This document shows, piece after piece, positions 45,001 through 64,000 of a stretch of 64,000 nucleotides of DNA. Made by a program: the position numbers. Numbering within the stretch: position 1 is the stretch's first letter; the number at the start of each line of letters is the position of its first letter. This DNA is from Lytechinus pictus (Eukaryota), in contig NC_087246.1 of NCBI RefSeq assembly GCF_037042905.1, positions 51,460,001-51,524,000 of the forward strand, written 5' to 3'.

Positions 45001-48000
45001 ATTTTGGGGATCAATTTGCTATATTACAAACATATAGACAGAAAGAAAAATAAGTGAGTGAGAACTTGTTTACAACAGAACTTCTTGTGTACACCACATA
45101 AACAAATGAGAGGGAGAGAGAGGGGGGGGGGGGGCAGAAAGAGAGAGAGGGAAAGAAAGAGAAGGGGGAAGTGAGAACTGATATTTTGTGCATGTTAAAC
45201 AATACATTTAGAAATTAAGGCTTACTTCAAACAAACCCATATAAAAGTATTACCAAGTTGCAGCATTATTAAACATTTAGAGATTTTTTTAGGGGATGAT
45301 AATGGAATGTTGATTATGGTATAGGCCTGATAAAGACTTTTATGATACAACATATAACTTCTTTATTTTTTGTCTGAAAAAAAAAGGTTTTAATGAGAAA
45401 GAGAACCCCTCGCGAAATTTAATTTTCCTCTCGAAAAAGTTGATAACTTGAGATGGCAAATGGCAAGATTGCTTTGTAAAATTCCAACTTATGCTCCAAA
45501 GGTAAAATCAATGTAATATCATCAATGGAAATTGATGAATACATGTAAAGTATAAAAAGCTTAATAGAGCAGTGATGGTAACTTACTGACTGCGTTGGTA
45601 TTGGGTTGTGGTGATTGGCTGGCTGTAGTCATCATCACCACCGGGTTAGTAGTTTCATCTTCAGCCTGGGTAGATGCTGTGGGACTACGGGTTGTTGAAG
45701 TTGTCGTTGACATCATGGTGGGAACTGGACTATCATCTGTATAGTATAAGACAAGTGTGAATTTTAAATCAAGATAATAACAAAGCCATGAGAACATATA
45801 CTGATGAGAGGTAATGCTACTTTTGAGATGATCAAAAGCTCAAGTAAAGTTTTGATAGCAAAACAAGGAATTGGGATAATTTCAAAATTGACATTCAGGT
45901 ACCATACCAAAGTTGAAAATCCCAGACTTCATCTAACTATAACTTTAAATAAATGTGTCAGAATGCATGACAGAAAGGGGCAGGGGTTATGTACCCCTTG
46001 TGTAGTAATATATTCTCCTTCCCATTTTCCACTTGTAAGATTTTTGAGGGGGGGGGGCAATTTCATCATTTTGGAGGAGTGACAACATGTTTTATGAGTC
46101 CAATTTTGAAGAAGTCAATCCACACGGTTTTCTTGAGATTAAAAAAAAAAAAAAGCTACCTAAAGGAAATTTCTGAACCCACTCACCCAAACCATTCAGA
46201 TATTTTTATTGTCCATAATGCAATTAGTAACAAATGGAAATTCAATTTGTTCACACAAAAGTAATTTAGAATGTCTAAAGATAGAATGTCTTTAATAAGA
46301 TACAAAGATTACATGATACATATATGTAAACATTATACAAGTCAACAAAGATCAGTGAAATTAAGATAGAGGCGGGGGGGGGGGGGTGTGGGTAATACCA
46401 TTTTATGGCTATTAAATGAACGGATTGAGACAGGAATAAAAGAATTTACGAAGCGTGAGTTTCTGCCGGGAGGTGATCTCAGATGTTTGACTGTCCTAAT
46501 CAAATTATAATATTTACGGAAAGCACCCTTTTTCTTTTATTTTAGAGGCTTGCTTTTAAATTCTTTTTAGTTTTTGTAGATCATCTTTCCTACTCGCATG
46601 TATTAAAACAATAAAACCTCCCTTAAACATGGAACCTCCCTTGAATTAACACTCACTATCCTGTATGGTAACTCGTGTGGTGCCATCTACGACGGTTCCC
46701 ATGTTAGCTTCTCCACGTGACTCGATGGTTATGGATACCGTGAAGGATTCATCAGTCTCTATTATATCGTCATCAATGAGGAGGATATCAATACCAACTC
46801 TGGTTTGACCCTCTAGCATGGTGTGTGTGCTACCCACAGTCGGGGCAAAATCCTGTCCTTCTAATGCTGTCTCACCGGTAAAAGTCACATCTGCAATGAA
46901 ATATTCAAGGAAGAACATTCCATCATTAATTTTTACTAAAATACTGTAATAATATAGAGTAGAATAAAGTATAACACAACATTCTAGGTTTCACTTCATT
47001 GGGTTAAATATGAACGTTATATACACTCAGCAAAAAAAGTTCTTGGACACTTATAAAAGTTAAAATATTCCATATAGATATTTGATTAAAGGCAAATTAT
47101 TGTATGTCAACATGACCAGATAATATTCCTATTCCAGTATGACATGACATTTTCATGTGAACAGTCATGCATGGGTAGTTAAATGCTTTAAACAATAGCA
47201 ATGTCAGTAAAAGAAAATTGCAAGAAATGGATCAGTCAGTGCATGGCTGGTTTAAACAATGGCAATGTCAGTTAAAGAAAATTGCAAGAAAACGATCAGT
47301 CATTCTTTCAGTTGTGAAAGTTTGTGTGGCATAAATATCCATTAAACGATAAAAGCAAACTTAAAGGCAAATACCACTCTAAAAGTGAAGAGAAAGTTAT
47401 CCACCTTGGATGCATCACTATTCCATTGGAATTTTAAGTCAAAGTTAGTTGATGAAAAAAATGTCAAATTTCAGTATCTTGGCATAAGAAAAAGAAAATT
47501 ATCCTTATCCTACTATCTTCTGCAGGGGTGGTGGCCCTAGGTCGACCACTCCTAAGGCGGTCTCTAACTTCATCAGTAGCCAAATACCGCTGGTTCAAAT
47601 TTGAAATTGTTGTTGGTGAAACTTGGAAATATCGAGCCACTTGTCTAAATGACTGCCCAGACTGCAACATTCCTATTGCTCTTGCACGCTCTTGGTTGGA
47701 AAGCTTCATCTTGAAAGTGAGTGTCCAAATGATCCATCGCATTATGCATCCCTAAGCATTCAATTCAAATGATGACCAACTGTTGAAATTGTTGAATGTA
47801 TGCCTACAGGATGGCCATGATCATTAGCATTTGAGTGGTCCATTTCTTGCAAATTTCTTTTACTGACATTGCTATTGATTAAAGCATTTAACCACCCATG
47901 CATGACTGTTCACATGAAAATGTCATGTCATACTGGAAGAGGAATATTGTCTGGTCATGTTGACATACAATAATTTGCCTTTAATCAAATAACTATATGG

Positions 48001-63000: not shown

Positions 63001-64000
63001 ACAAACTTCCCGGTATCCTTCACTCTGTTAATTTCTTTTTAAAAAATATGTATATTTTCAATTAGTCACTATATTCATGGGGGGGAAAAAATATTTAGAC
63101 CTTCACATTTTCTACATGAATCACATCAATAATTAGGCAATATGAAATAATGTAATTTCATGTAAATTGTGATTACACTGTTTCTGGAAAATTTTTACAT
63201 TACTTATTAGTTTACATAAAAGTATACAATCTCTACAACTTCTTCTAAAGCACAGGTTAATTGTAGGTCAATTATCCCAATGTATTAAATGCTTTGTAAA
63301 AACTGTTTAACATTTTCATTAACTATTCTCTATCATAGCTACCACTAAAAGTCTACCTTGCATTGAACTCATATGTAGGCTAATTTACAAGTCAAAAGTA
63401 CAATATTTATCACTCTTTAAATAAAAAGACTTTATATGTAAACAGGGCAATGGACTTCTGAGAATGAACACCCCTTCATTTTCAAAAGCATTTTCATTCA
63501 GGCAGTAAAAGTAATGATGATTACAACACATTCAGAGATCATACTCCATAACTCCACCCCACTCAGACCCCATCACAGTACCTCACCCTTTACACCAATG
63601 GCAATAGATAGAAACTCATCCACACCCACATCTCTTCTTACCCCCACACTACCAGCTGAAAGCAAGGTGTCAATGGACACAGCCGGCACATATGCAAATA
63701 CTTACAAGACATCGAAGTTCTGGAAGGATACTGCCGGAATGGTGTTCAGATTCAATCCAGAGCAGTTGAAAATACGATTTTGACATTGACATCCATCTGG
63801 CGTTCCACTAGGGCATTCTTGAGCAAAAACGAGGTGAAATATCACCAAAAAGAGCGTTACGACAAATATCCCCCTCGCCATGGTTCTGTGTGTATAGTAA
63901 ATCCTTTTCGCCTAGCTTAGCTTTCCCCGCAATCTTTGTACTGCTGCTGTCCGAAGATCGAGTCACCGACTTTGCCTGAAAACAGGGTTTTAGTCGAATG

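What the first reader, a model, noticed from the sequence alone, without database searches (positions are those of the whole stretch)
45587..63881. Unusual LRR + Calx-beta + mucin-stalk ectodomain
Seen: SP-LRRNT-LRRs-LRRCT, then one Calx-beta domain with an acidic DDDIIETDE loop, then a Thr-rich stalk. Known: Calx-beta occurs in NCX exchangers, integrin beta4, ADGRV1 and FRAS1/FREM/ECM3, whereas LRR receptors usually pair with Ig, FN3 or TIR. I do not recall a named family with this combination. A short LRR solenoid on a stalk recalls GPIb-alpha/VLR geometry. Inference: a Ca2+-rigidified adhesion or recognition receptor, possibly lineage-specific.
Basis: partly seen in the sequence, partly recalled or inferred. 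Interest (0 to 1): 0.65.

Follow-up and report, generated by a model that had tools for sequence, protein, structure and literature searches.

The report
Sea urchin LRR–Calx-beta membrane receptor
This is a real, intact sea urchin gene for a small cell-surface protein that puts a leucine-rich-repeat binding head on a calcium-binding Calx-beta domain, a sugar-coated stalk and a membrane anchor; it is already predicted in public databases but has never been studied and was seen only in sea urchins.

Summary
On the minus strand lies an intact gene of Lytechinus pictus (not human). It encodes a signal peptide, a four-Cys LRRNT, four LRRs, a reduced two-Cys LRRCT, one Calx-beta domain, a 48-residue Ser/Thr/Pro stalk, a transmembrane helix and a short tail. 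The membrane anchor and tail lie further down, in three alternative 3' ends (44847-44732, 43065-42890, 36650-36633).

The gene equals the public record 'uncharacterized protein LOC129254021 isoform X1' (403 aa). Full-length relatives were found only in four sea urchins: L. pictus, L. variegatus, S. purpuratus and Diadema antillarum (44% identity). No paper in the searched library names it.

The LRR head superposes on lamprey VLRs (TM 0.73-0.77). The Calx-beta domain superposes on the NCX1 Ca2+ sensor CBD1 (TM 0.86) and keeps its acidic residues. The best-conserved part is the cytoplasmic tail (76% against Diadema), which carries two YxxV motifs ten residues apart.

Most likely it is a single-copy, Ca2+-loaded recognition or adhesion receptor that signals or is sorted through tyrosine motifs. 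It is a new variant of a known kind, of moderate interest.

The parts
63706..63881 (-). Exon 1 (coding part): ATG at 63881, signal peptide, four-Cys LRRNT and the start of LRR1. It ends in a phase-2 intron with donor GTAAGT.
   Evidence: Sequence. Pfam LRRNT E 7.3e-6. 58 of 58 residues identical to P0001. Helix 2-19 in the model.
57130..57198 (-). Exon 2: a 69-nt LRR cassette, phase 2-2.
   Evidence: tblastn to P0001 residues 60-82.
56085..56156 (-). Exon 3: a 72-nt LRR cassette, phase 2-2.
   Evidence: Pfam LRR_8 E 1.1e-4..
54051..54122 (-). Exon 4: a 72-nt LRR cassette, phase 2-2.
   Evidence: 24 of 24 residues identical to P0001 107-130.
52774..52907 (-). Exon 5: the last LRR plus a reduced two-Cys LRRCT cap. 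It enters in phase 2 and leaves in phase 1.
   Evidence: 44 of 44 residues identical to P0001 131-174. It aligns with the VLR LRRCT in 4qxe_A. There is no Pfam LRRCT hit.
51424..51552 (-). Exon 6: the N-terminal third of the Calx-beta domain, phase 1-1.
   Evidence: Pfam Calx-beta profile positions 6-37, E 1.1e-3.
46657..46890 (-). Exon 7: the C-terminal two thirds of the Calx-beta domain with the acidic loop DDDIIETDE, phase 1-1.
   Evidence: Pfam Calx-beta profile positions 48-117, E 1.6e-7. It aligns with NCX1 CBD1.
45587..45736 (-). Exon 8: the Ser/Thr/Pro-rich stalk, phase 1-1.
   Evidence: The stalk is 48 residues with 20 Ser+Thr and 6 Pro. It has low pLDDT and no secondary structure in either model.
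44732..44847 (-). Exon 9a: a duplicated transmembrane exon with its own stop, giving a 14-residue tail without tyrosine motifs (...YRHTRNTKATNSGP*). It is probably an alternative 3' end. The public isoform X1 does not use it.
   Evidence: 93 nt are 78% identical to exon 9b. Over 28 codons there are 14 synonymous and 6 non-synonymous differences, dN/dS about 0.09.
42890..43065 (-). Exon 9b: the transmembrane helix plus a 34-residue tail with VRYAAV and KVYSDV, then the stop. The public 403-aa model uses it. It contains an internal GGG|GTACGT site that could serve as a donor.
   Evidence: tblastn to P0001 residues 346-403. The hydropathy peak is at residue 347. Helix 347-375 in the model.
36633..36650 (-). 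Candidate terminal micro-exon: a run of C followed by a CAG acceptor, then ATC TAT GCA GTC CTC TGA, which reads IYAVL*. It would be joined in phase 0 to the internal donor of exon 9b.
   Evidence: It matches the end of S. purpuratus isoform X2...TTAG-IYSVL. This is inference; no transcript was seen.

Best explanation
The gene encodes a single-pass type I surface glycoprotein found in euechinoid sea urchins.

Shown:
- A cleavable signal peptide.
- A compact capped LRR solenoid (LRRNT, four repeats, reduced LRRCT), the size and shape of a minimal lamprey VLR.
- One Calx-beta sandwich that keeps the acidic cluster of the NCX1 Ca2+ sensor domain CBD1.
- A disordered stalk of 45-49 residues rich in Ser, Thr and Pro.
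- One transmembrane helix and a short tail.

Inferred:
- The concave face of the LRR head binds a conserved ligand, probably an endogenous one.
- The Calx-beta domain is permanently loaded with Ca2+ in sea water and acts as a rigid spacer rather than a sensor. Its Ca2+ cluster lies at its C-terminal end, so it stiffens the junction to the stalk.
- The O-glycosylated stalk lifts the head above the glycocalyx.
- The tail is the output. The two tyrosine motifs VRYAAV and KVYSDV lie ten residues apart. They either dock SH2 proteins after phosphorylation or act as YxxPhi sorting signals.
- Alternative 3' exons swap this tail for a single-YxxL tail or for a tail with no tyrosine motif, which tunes the output.

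The Calx-beta module (exons 6 and 7) is bounded by phase-1 introns, as are the stalk and the anchor. The LRR cassettes are phase 2-2. This is the pattern expected if the architecture arose by exon shuffling.
For: Gene structure and open frame:
- Searches show the exons, borders and phases.
- All exons match the public protein P0001, and each alignment is identical inside the exon borders; the few mismatches fall at or beyond them, where tblastn runs into intron.

Domains in P0001:
- Calx-beta E 1.5e-14, 54.5 bits against 27, profile positions 7-119 of 119.
- LRR_8 E 3.6e-12.

Fold:
- The LRR head has pLDDT 75-95 and TM 0.73-0.77 to VLR9, VLRB.2D and VLR2913.
- The Calx-beta domain has pLDDT 77-92. 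Its TM is 0.86 to NCX1 CBD1 2dpk (rmsd 2.2 A, 120 columns, 30% identity) and 0.90 to CALX CBD1.

Ca2+ ligands:
- The loop aligns with 'IDDDIFEEDENF' of CBD1.
- E196, D258, E262 and E265 are invariant in 21 sequences.
- D295-N296-D297 are invariant in the 4 orthologues.

Conservation, L. pictus against Diadema:
- Tail 25/33 (76%).
- LRR 46%, Calx-beta 43%, stalk 35%.
- Both tyrosine motifs are kept in 3 of the 4 orthologue models; the fourth ends in GIYSVL.

Alternative ends: plus the S. purpuratus isoforms X2 and X4.

Copy number: one full gene per species, plus one partial second locus in L. pictus. This argues for a conserved ligand and against a diversified repertoire.
Against: - No transcript, expression, ligand or phosphorylation data could be reached. 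All four orthologues are automatic gene predictions.
- Neither tyrosine motif meets the recalled ITAM consensus, because both have V and not L/I at +3. KVYSDV also lacks the hydrophobic residue at -2 of the recalled ITIM consensus.
- Ca2+ binding rests on alignment to CBD1, not on measurement. One of the three C-terminal Asp residues is Asn. The third D of DDD varies between species (P, A or S).
- Both structure models are only partly confident (mean pLDDT 56.9 and 62.4). Neither gives a trustworthy orientation of the head relative to the Calx-beta domain.
- Use of exon 9a and of the 36650-36633 micro-exon is inferred from sequence alone.
Confidence: 0.55

Rival explanations
1. It is a passive adhesion or matrix-anchoring protein. 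The LRR head and the Ca2+-loaded Calx-beta domain hold a cell to a matrix or to a neighbouring cell. The tail tyrosines serve only as YxxPhi endocytosis or sorting signals, with no signalling role.
For: - Extracellular Calx-beta domains are known mainly from adhesion and matrix proteins such as FRAS1/FREM/ECM3 and sponge aggregation factors (passages read in PMC5460417, and PMC5400394).
- YAAV and YSDV both fit YxxPhi (the consensus is recalled).
- The tail is short, at 34 residues.
Against: - The tail is the best-conserved region of the protein, far beyond the four residues of a sorting signal. A run of 24 residues, TTAGVRYAAVQN.GKVY.DVT.KA, is almost fixed across about 44% overall identity.
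- Alternative tails would hardly matter for a passive anchor.
Confidence: 0.2
2. It is an auxiliary subunit or co-receptor. Like other small LRR type I proteins, it would act mainly through its transmembrane helix and head on a partner channel or receptor.
For: - The transmembrane segment is strongly constrained. Residues N346, A348, A349, I350, V351, P353, I354, L356, V359 and I360 are invariant in 4 species.
- The duplicated exon 9a keeps the helix with dN/dS about 0.09.
- The Foldseek list includes the LRRC26 subunit of Slo1 (8vav_E), but with a low TM of 0.34.
Against: - No partner is indicated by anything in the window.
- The helix has no charged residue.
- The conserved tail points to an output of its own.
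- The match to LRRC26 is no better than to many other LRR proteins.
Confidence: 0.12
3. It is an innate immune pattern-recognition receptor of coelomocytes, a germline counterpart of VLR or TLR recognition.
For: - The head is VLR-like.
- The tandem tyrosine motif has ITAM-like spacing.
- Sea urchins have large LRR immune repertoires (PMC3367398, seen in the search listing only).
Against: - It is single-copy and conserved, 94% between the two Lytechinus species, and not an expanded or diversified family.
- No further LRR cassettes lie in the 64-kb window.
- No expression data were available.
Confidence: 0.08
4. It is a gene-model artefact: an LRR gene and a Calx-beta gene lie next to each other and prediction software fused them.
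For: All models are automatic. S. purpuratus has an N-terminally truncated isoform model, X4 (276 aa). L. pictus has a partial second locus without the LRR exons (P0002).
Against: - The phases fit: E5 ends in phase 1 and E6 starts in phase 1.
- The LRR part has no stop codon or membrane anchor of its own.
- The Calx-beta part has no signal peptide of its own.
- The same fused order is predicted in four species, including Diadema at 44% identity.
Confidence: 0.03

Closest known systems
Variable lymphocyte receptors of lampreys and hagfish (VLRB and VLRA/C)
   Same: - The order signal peptide, LRRNT, a few LRRs, LRRCT, Thr/Pro-rich stalk is the same.
- The head is of the same size.
- Foldseek TM is 0.73-0.77 (6bxe_A, 3g3a_A, 2r9u_A).
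- phmmer aligns VLR9 with residues 22-181 in a single stretch.
- The LRRCT aligns with the VLR LRRCT.
   Different: - The germline gene here is complete, split by introns and single-copy, with no cassette reservoir in the window.
- A Calx-beta domain is inserted between the cap and the stalk.
- It has a transmembrane helix and a cytoplasmic tail. VLRs have a GPI anchor (recalled).
- Its LRRCT has only two cysteines.
- It occurs in echinoids, not in jawless vertebrates.
Ca2+-binding domain 1 (CBD1) of the Na+/Ca2+ exchangers NCX1 and CALX
   Same: - The fold is the same: TM 0.86-0.90, rmsd 1.7-2.2 A, 28-30% identity.
- The acidic E-F loop aligns residue for residue.
- Four acidic positions are invariant.
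   Different: - CBD1 is a cytosolic regulatory domain of a ten-helix transporter and works in tandem with CBD2.
- Here a single domain sits outside the cell, in roughly 10 mM Ca2+ (sea-water value, recalled). It can hardly act as a sensor there.
- No Na_Ca_ex membrane domain is present.
Extracellular Calx-beta proteins: FRAS1/FREM/ECM3, ADGRV1, integrin beta4, sponge aggregation factors
   Same: - They also carry a Calx-beta domain in a surface or matrix protein.
- TM to the integrin beta4 Calx-beta domain is 0.85-0.89.
- In Amphimedon aggregation factors the exons are also flanked by phase-1 introns (passage in PMC5400394).
   Different: - Those proteins carry arrays of Calx-beta domains, or pair them with CSPG, VWA/VWD, Wreath, fibronectin type III or seven-helix domains.
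- None has an N-terminal capped LRR head.
- Identity to integrin beta4 is only 21%.
LRRC4/NGL family (the automatic name of the L. variegatus orthologue is 'leucine-rich repeat-containing protein 4-like')
   Same: It is also a type I protein with LRRNT and LRRs. LRRC4, LRRC4B and LRRC4C chains are among the PDB sequence hits, with E from 1.9e-18 to 8.3e-16.
   Different: - No Ig domain is present.
- It has four repeats where, by recollection, NGLs have nine.
- A Calx-beta domain stands where the Ig domain would be.
- The C-terminus ...TAKA is not a class I PDZ ligand (motif recalled).
- The automatic name is therefore misleading.
LGR4-6 ectodomain, N-terminal part
   Same: It gives the best PDB sequence matches: 4qxe_A E 4.1e-29, and 9khh_C aligns residues 12-136. 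One LRR per 69-72-nt exon is also how I recall LGR and glycoprotein-hormone receptor genes to be built. That was not verified here; one search gave no usable passage.
   Different: - There is no seven-helix domain.
- There are 4 repeats, not 17.
- The match covers only generic LRRNT and LRR features.

Membership tests
Calx-beta domain (Pfam PF03160) | Score above the Pfam gathering cut-off over the whole profile | tested here: met
   P0001 scores 54.5 bits against 27, over profile positions 7-119 of 119. Exon 7 alone scores 31.8 bits.
Calx-beta domain (Pfam PF03160) | Seven-strand beta-sandwich fold that superposes on solved Calx-beta domains | tested here: met
   In model 2 residues 181-300 have pLDDT 77-92. 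TM is 0.86 to 2dpk, 0.90 to 3e9t and 0.89 to 3fq4.
Ca2+-binding Calx-beta domains (CBD1 type) | Acidic ligands in the A-B loop, the E-F loop and the C-terminal DDD | tested here: inconclusive
   E196, D258, E262 and E265 are invariant in 21 sequences, and the loop aligns with IDDDIFEEDENF. The C-terminal triplet is D-N-D, not D-D-D. The mapping to NCX1 residue numbers is recalled, and binding was not measured.
Extracellular capped LRR domain (LRRNT, LRR, LRRCT) | Four-Cys LRRNT | tested here: met
   Exon 1 scores 25.9 bits against 25.8. The full-length protein scores only 22.4 bits. C23, C31, C33 and C40 are kept in 4 of 4 species.
Extracellular capped LRR domain (LRRNT, LRR, LRRCT) | Tandem LRRs above the Pfam cut-off | tested here: met
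   LRR_8 scores 46.3 bits against 27 in P0001. The model shows beta strands at 58-60, 81-83, 105-107 and 129-131.
Extracellular capped LRR domain (LRRNT, LRR, LRRCT) | Four-Cys LRRCT (Pfam PF01463) | tested here: not met
   Pfam gives no LRRCT hit. Only C139 and C163 are present. A cap is still there: it aligns with the VLR LRRCT and has helix 142-153.
Variable lymphocyte receptors | Incomplete germline gene that is completed from flanking LRR cassettes | tested here: not met
   The germline gene is complete with spliceable exons. tblastn and the exon scans found no extra LRR cassette in the 64 kb.
Variable lymphocyte receptors | GPI anchor and no cytoplasmic tail (feature recalled) | tested here: not met
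   A transmembrane helix at 347-375 is followed by a conserved 34-residue tail.
LRRC4/NGL | C2-type Ig domain after the LRRCT, and a C-terminal PDZ ligand (features recalled) | tested here: not met
   Pfam finds no Ig family in P0001 or P0003. The C-terminus is ...VTAKA.
Na+/Ca2+ exchangers | Na_Ca_ex membrane domains flanking the Calx-beta domains | tested here: not met
   Only one hydrophobic segment follows the signal peptide. Pfam gives no Na_Ca_ex hit.
FRAS1/FREM/ECM3 | CSPG repeats plus five Calx-beta domains (as described in the PMC5460417 passage) | tested here: not met
   The protein has one Calx-beta domain and no CSPG hit.
ITAM-bearing receptors | YxxL/I, then 6-8 residues, then YxxL/I (consensus recalled) | tested here: not met
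   The motif is Y386-AAV, six residues, Y396-SDV. The spacing fits, but both +3 residues are Val. It is kept in L. pictus, L. variegatus and Diadema and in S. purpuratus isoform X4.

The most novel reading that the evidence does not exclude
Euechinoids evolved, by exon shuffling, a receptor type of their own. It has a VLR-shaped LRR head held on a Ca2+-locked Calx-beta strut and a mucin stalk. It signals through an unusual valine-type tandem tyrosine motif (YxxV, six residues, YxxV) to SH2 kinases or phosphatases. Three alternative 3' ends switch it between a full-signal form, a single-YxxL form and a form with no tyrosine motif. It would then be a candidate for one of the orphan surface binding sites of sea urchin cells. 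One example is the unidentified phagocyte binding site for SpTransformer proteins, a family that PMC11810900 (passages read) also describes as restricted to euechinoids. Nothing here links the two beyond that shared range.
Probability: 0.12. Interest if true: 0.7.

Novelty: new variant of a known kind. Interest (0 to 1): 0.4.

Why it matters
It shows how a new receptor architecture can be built from standard parts. Phase-2 LRR cassettes and a phase-1 Calx-beta module are joined in one gene, within a single animal class. It is also a small, single-copy and experimentally tractable case of an extracellular Calx-beta domain, whose role outside the Na+/Ca2+ exchangers is poorly understood.

L. pictus is a genetic model sea urchin, so knock-outs and tagged lines are feasible. 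The nearly fixed tyrosine tail and the alternative tails give direct handles for asking whether echinoderms use ITAM/ITIM-like signalling on LRR receptors.

If it turns out to be an ordinary adhesion protein, the main gain is a better annotation. 'LRRC4-like' is wrong, and 'uncharacterized' can become 'LRR and Calx-beta domain-containing transmembrane protein'.

Tried and rejected
- **Extra LRR or Calx-beta exons.** One search examined 89 open AG...GT segments of 66-78 nt. One search examined 164 segments of 45-237 nt, of which 27 passed the splice-site filters. Only E2-E5 look like LRRs. The ORF at 53674-53856, which I first suspected, has no LRR pattern and no match to P0001.
- **My first gene end.** I first ended the gene at exon 9a (383 aa). 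The public model uses exon 9b instead. Both are kept as alternatives.
- **ESM Atlas.** It returned only generic LRR clusters, with scores of 0.80-0.83. The tool treats anything under 0.9 as a lead only, and no structure search was possible.
- **Cluster look-up for isoform names.** The database was switched off, so the 4 members of P0001's cluster and a possible L. pictus isoform using exon 9a stayed unseen.
- **First structure model (4 sequences).** The Calx-beta part was unusable, with pLDDT 30-46. A second model from 21 sequences fixed that part but spoiled residues 114-180. No model gives the angle between head and Calx-beta domain.
- **'Spanning' matches of LRR plus Calx-beta in giant proteins (18 of 153 proteins flagged).** Pfam on 4 of the flagged giants showed true co-occurrence in 2 (P0146, P0086). 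The other 2 (P0049, P0123) have LRRs followed by other beta-sandwich domains (CARDB, He_PIG, PKD).
- **The highest-scoring giant hits.** P0004, P0005 and P0007 are Calx-beta arrays; two also carry bacterial-type domains (P0004 LapA; P0005 CHU_C and Big_9). They say nothing about animal relatives.
- **Literature on LGR exon phases.** No usable passage was found.
- **Other genes in the window.** Pfam on 103 further ORFs of 62 aa or more gave only the helix-turn-helix of a transposon remnant. Rfam and tRNA scans found nothing.
- **Complex prediction.** Not used, because no binding partner is claimed.

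
Full report
**Source and scope.** The window has 29-40% G+C and one N run at 34723-34957, which I left alone. A search with a single exon identified the organism as the sea urchin Lytechinus pictus. It is not human sequence. That joined step was left out. All full-length work used the public database record P0001, which the exon-7 search returned.

**Checking the observation.** The gene lies on the minus strand. Reading the DNA at each candidate exon gave eight ectodomain exons with AG/GT borders and matching phases:
- E1 63881-63706: ATG, signal peptide and LRRNT.
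- E2 57198-57130, E3 56156-56085 and E4 54122-54051: LRR cassettes of 69, 72 and 72 nt, all phase 2-2.
- E5 52907-52774: last LRR and the cap, phase 2 to phase 1.
- E6 51552-51424 and E7 46890-46657: the Calx-beta domain, each phase 1-1.
- E8 45736-45587: the stalk, phase 1-1.

Two scans for further cassette exons found no other LRR-like exon. One search tested 89 open segments. One search tested 164, of which 27 passed the splice filters.

Pfam on the nine exon translations gave:
- LRRNT in E1 (E 7.3e-6).
- LRR_8 in E3 (E 1.1e-4, below the cut-off, as expected for one repeat).
- Calx-beta in E6 (profile positions 6-37) and in E7 (positions 48-117, E 1.6e-7). These are the two halves of one domain.
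- Nothing for E2, E4, E5 and E8.

**The rest of the gene.** Downstream there are two copies of a transmembrane exon.
- Exon 9b (43065-42890) encodes the helix plus the tail ...YRQTRTINKATTAGVRYAAVQNRGKVYSDVTAKA*. The public model uses it.
- Exon 9a (44847-44732) has the same acceptor and helix, but stops after ...YRHTRNTKATNSGP*.

The two copies share 93 nt at 78% identity. Over 28 codons they differ by 14 synonymous and 6 non-synonymous changes, giving dN/dS of about 0.09. Exon 9a has therefore been kept by selection and is probably an alternative 3' end.

A third end is likely. Exon 9b contains an internal GGG|GTACGT site. At 36650-36633 a run of C followed by a CAG acceptor precedes ATC TAT GCA GTC CTC TGA, which reads IYAVL*. 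This mirrors S. purpuratus isoform X2, which ends ...TTAG-IYSVL. Use of 9a and of the micro-exon is inferred. I could not see transcripts.

**Identity and range.** The exon-7 search (3 hits among 79 candidates) returned:
- P0001, 'uncharacterized protein LOC129254021 isoform X1 [Lytechinus pictus]', 403 aa.
- P0003, L. variegatus 'leucine-rich repeat-containing protein 4-like isoform X1', 404 aa.
- P0002, a 272-aa model from a second L. pictus locus.

tblastn of P0001 on the window matched every exon. Each alignment is identical inside the exon borders, and the few mismatches fall at or beyond them, where tblastn runs into intron.

A full HMMER scan of 1.84 billion representatives gave 10062 hits at E up to 1e-3, of which the best 150 were listed. 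Besides P0001 itself it listed only three single-stretch relatives that cover most or all of the protein:
- P0002, the partial L. pictus model.
- P0006, S. purpuratus LOC100887883 isoform X4.
- P0009, 400 aa and 44% identical.

The profile search gave 57 hits at E up to 1e-6. It named P0009 as an uncharacterised protein of Diadema antillarum. Only 6 of the 57 carry Calx-beta, and all 6 are echinoid. The other 51 are LRR-only proteins that cover at most 36% of the query.

The family was thus seen only in euechinoids. Two limits apply:
- One search lists only scores above about 112 bits.
- One search scored only the 8000 best word-sharing candidates.

No eukaryotic genome collection could be searched. 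Seven paper searches found nothing on this gene or architecture. The passages I read in PMC8242945, PMC6208332, PMC5460417, PMC5400394 and PMC11788884 concern other Calx-beta proteins.

**Anatomy of the protein.** Pfam on P0001 gave:
- Calx-beta, 54.5 bits against 27, over the whole profile.
- LRR_8, 46.3 bits.
- LRR_5, 29.3 bits.
- LRRNT, 22.4 bits, just under the cut-off.
- No LRRCT, Ig, FN3 or TIR family.

Other features:
- Six cysteines are fixed in all four species: four in the LRRNT and two in the cap.
- One sequon (N39 in L. pictus numbering) is fixed in all four; the NDS sequon at the end of the Calx-beta domain is kept in three of the four.
- The stalk has 45-49 residues, with 17-20 Ser+Thr and 6-10 Pro.
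- The single strong hydropathy peak is at residue 347.

**Structure.** Two AlphaFold models complement each other.
- With 4 orthologues, the LRR head (residues 21-175) is confident, with pLDDT 75-95, but the Calx-beta part is not.
- With 21 sequences, the Calx-beta part (residues 181-300) reaches pLDDT 77-92, but residues 114-180 degrade.

Foldseek against the PDB puts the head next to small lamprey VLRs: TM 0.77 to 6bxe_A, 0.76 to 3g3a_A and 0.73 to 2r9u_A. Slit2 D3 has the best E-value.

The Calx-beta domain falls next to NCX1 CBD1 (2dpk: TM 0.86, rmsd 2.2 A, 30% identity), CALX CBD1 (TM 0.90) and integrin beta4 (TM 0.89).

By sequence, the best PDB matches of the head are the LGR4 N-terminus and VLRs. 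The cap aligns with the VLR LRRCT.

**Ca2+ site.** Exon 7 aligns with CBD1 so that IDDDIIETDESF lies on IDDDIFEEDENF. The paralogue P0002 aligns with CBD1 and CBD2 over almost the whole domain, E 3e-12. E196, D258, E262 and E265 are invariant in 21 aligned sequences. D295-N296-D297 are invariant in the four orthologues.

From memory, these correspond to E385, D447, E451, E454 and D498-D500 of NCX1, all Ca2+ ligands. Binding is therefore likely but unmeasured. At sea-water Ca2+ the site would be constantly filled, so I read the domain as a stiffened spacer and not as a sensor.

**The tail.** L. pictus compared with Diadema gives these identities:
- LRRNT 60%
- LRR 46%
- Cap 30%
- Calx-beta 43%
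- Stalk 35%
- Helix 46%
- Tail 76% (25/33)

The tail holds VRYAAV (Y386) and KVYSDV (Y396). The spacing fits the recalled ITAM rule, but both +3 residues are Val. VRYAAV fits the recalled ITIM rule. Both motifs fit YxxPhi.

This is the strongest functional clue. The output of the protein runs through these tyrosines, either by SH2 docking or by sorting, and the alternative ends change exactly this part.

**How it arose.** The LRR cassettes are phase 2-2. The Calx-beta exons, the stalk and the anchor are all bounded by phase-1 introns. The Calx-beta pair could therefore be inserted between cap and stalk without breaking the frame, which is the classic signature of exon shuffling. This follows directly.

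**Comparison and novelty.** The protein works most like a VLR- or GPIb-type 'head on a stalk' receptor. The GPIb comparison is recalled and was not tested. It is not a member of any of the following:
- VLR: the germline gene is complete, with no cassette reservoir, and it has a helix and a tail.
- LRRC4/NGL: no Ig domain and no PDZ end.
- NCX: no transporter domains.
- FRAS/FREM: no CSPG repeats.

The Pfam pair LRR plus Calx-beta is not unique. It occurs in the giant unnamed proteins P0146 and P0086. The top-scoring Calx-beta arrays include two with bacterial-type domains. No relative of similar length outside echinoids carried both domains in what I could search.

The gene is already predicted in public records, so the finding is a new variant of a known kind. 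It is worth a better annotation and a modest experimental follow-up.

**Verdict.**
- Observation: confirmed.
- Interpretation: partly supported.
- Interest: 0.4.
- Confidence in the structural description: high.
- Confidence in the proposed mechanism: about 0.55.

Noticed in passing
window 44732-44847 (-) against 42890-43065 (-): The transmembrane exon is tandemly duplicated, 1782 bp apart. The two copies share 93 nt at 78% identity, and dN/dS over 28 codons is about 0.09. The upstream copy encodes a short tail without tyrosine motifs.
   Followed up: partly
window 36633-36650 (-): Behind a run of C and a CAG acceptor lies a micro-exon-like ORF that reads IYAVL and then a stop. It matches the C-terminus of S. 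purpuratus isoform X2 (IYSVL).
   Followed up: partly
window 47021-48049, in the intron between the two Calx-beta exons: A transposon remnant has 218-nt terminal inverted repeats (47021-47238 and 47832-48049, 96% complementary). The 593 nt between them hold an ORF at 47467-47751 (-) with helix-turn-helix hits (HTH_38 E 2.8e-8, PAX-like). It looks like an internally deleted Tc1/mariner-type element.
   Followed up: partly
window about 6915-7200 (+), 16850-17215 (-) and 57420-57800 (+): There are three copies of a short interspersed repeat, nearly identical over about 250 nt. Two copies continue for about 380 nt and end in a sequence complementary to their start (TTTCATAAACCC ... GGGTTTATGAAA), so it looks like a MITE. 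One copy lies in intron 1 of the gene. It gives a spurious 90-aa ORF in each copy.
   Followed up: partly
window 26249-26632: A TG-rich tandem array has periods of 26 and 64 nt, with about 15 copies. It produces long open frames of about 146-158 aa in all three minus-strand frames (HLPHT... repeats). It is not a gene.
   Followed up: no
window 20571-20751: A perfect tandem duplication of an 89-nt unit (2.0 copies, 100% match).
   Followed up: no
P0002 (L. pictus LOC129278020) against window 52915-52956 and 44167-44240: A second L. pictus locus gives a 272-aa model, 91-93% identical over E5-E8. Its first and last residues match intron and downstream non-coding sequence of this window at about 82-86%. 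It looks like a partial duplicate or a diverged haplotype read through by the predictor.
   Followed up: partly
window 1-36000: Among the ORFs of 62 aa or more tested from this stretch, none matched a Pfam family at or above its cut-off. Rfam and tRNA scans were also empty. CT-rich simple sequence at about 13050-13700 and 31200-31930 gives Pro/Ser/Leu-rich ORFs in several frames. The N run at 34723-34957 was left untouched.
   Followed up: partly
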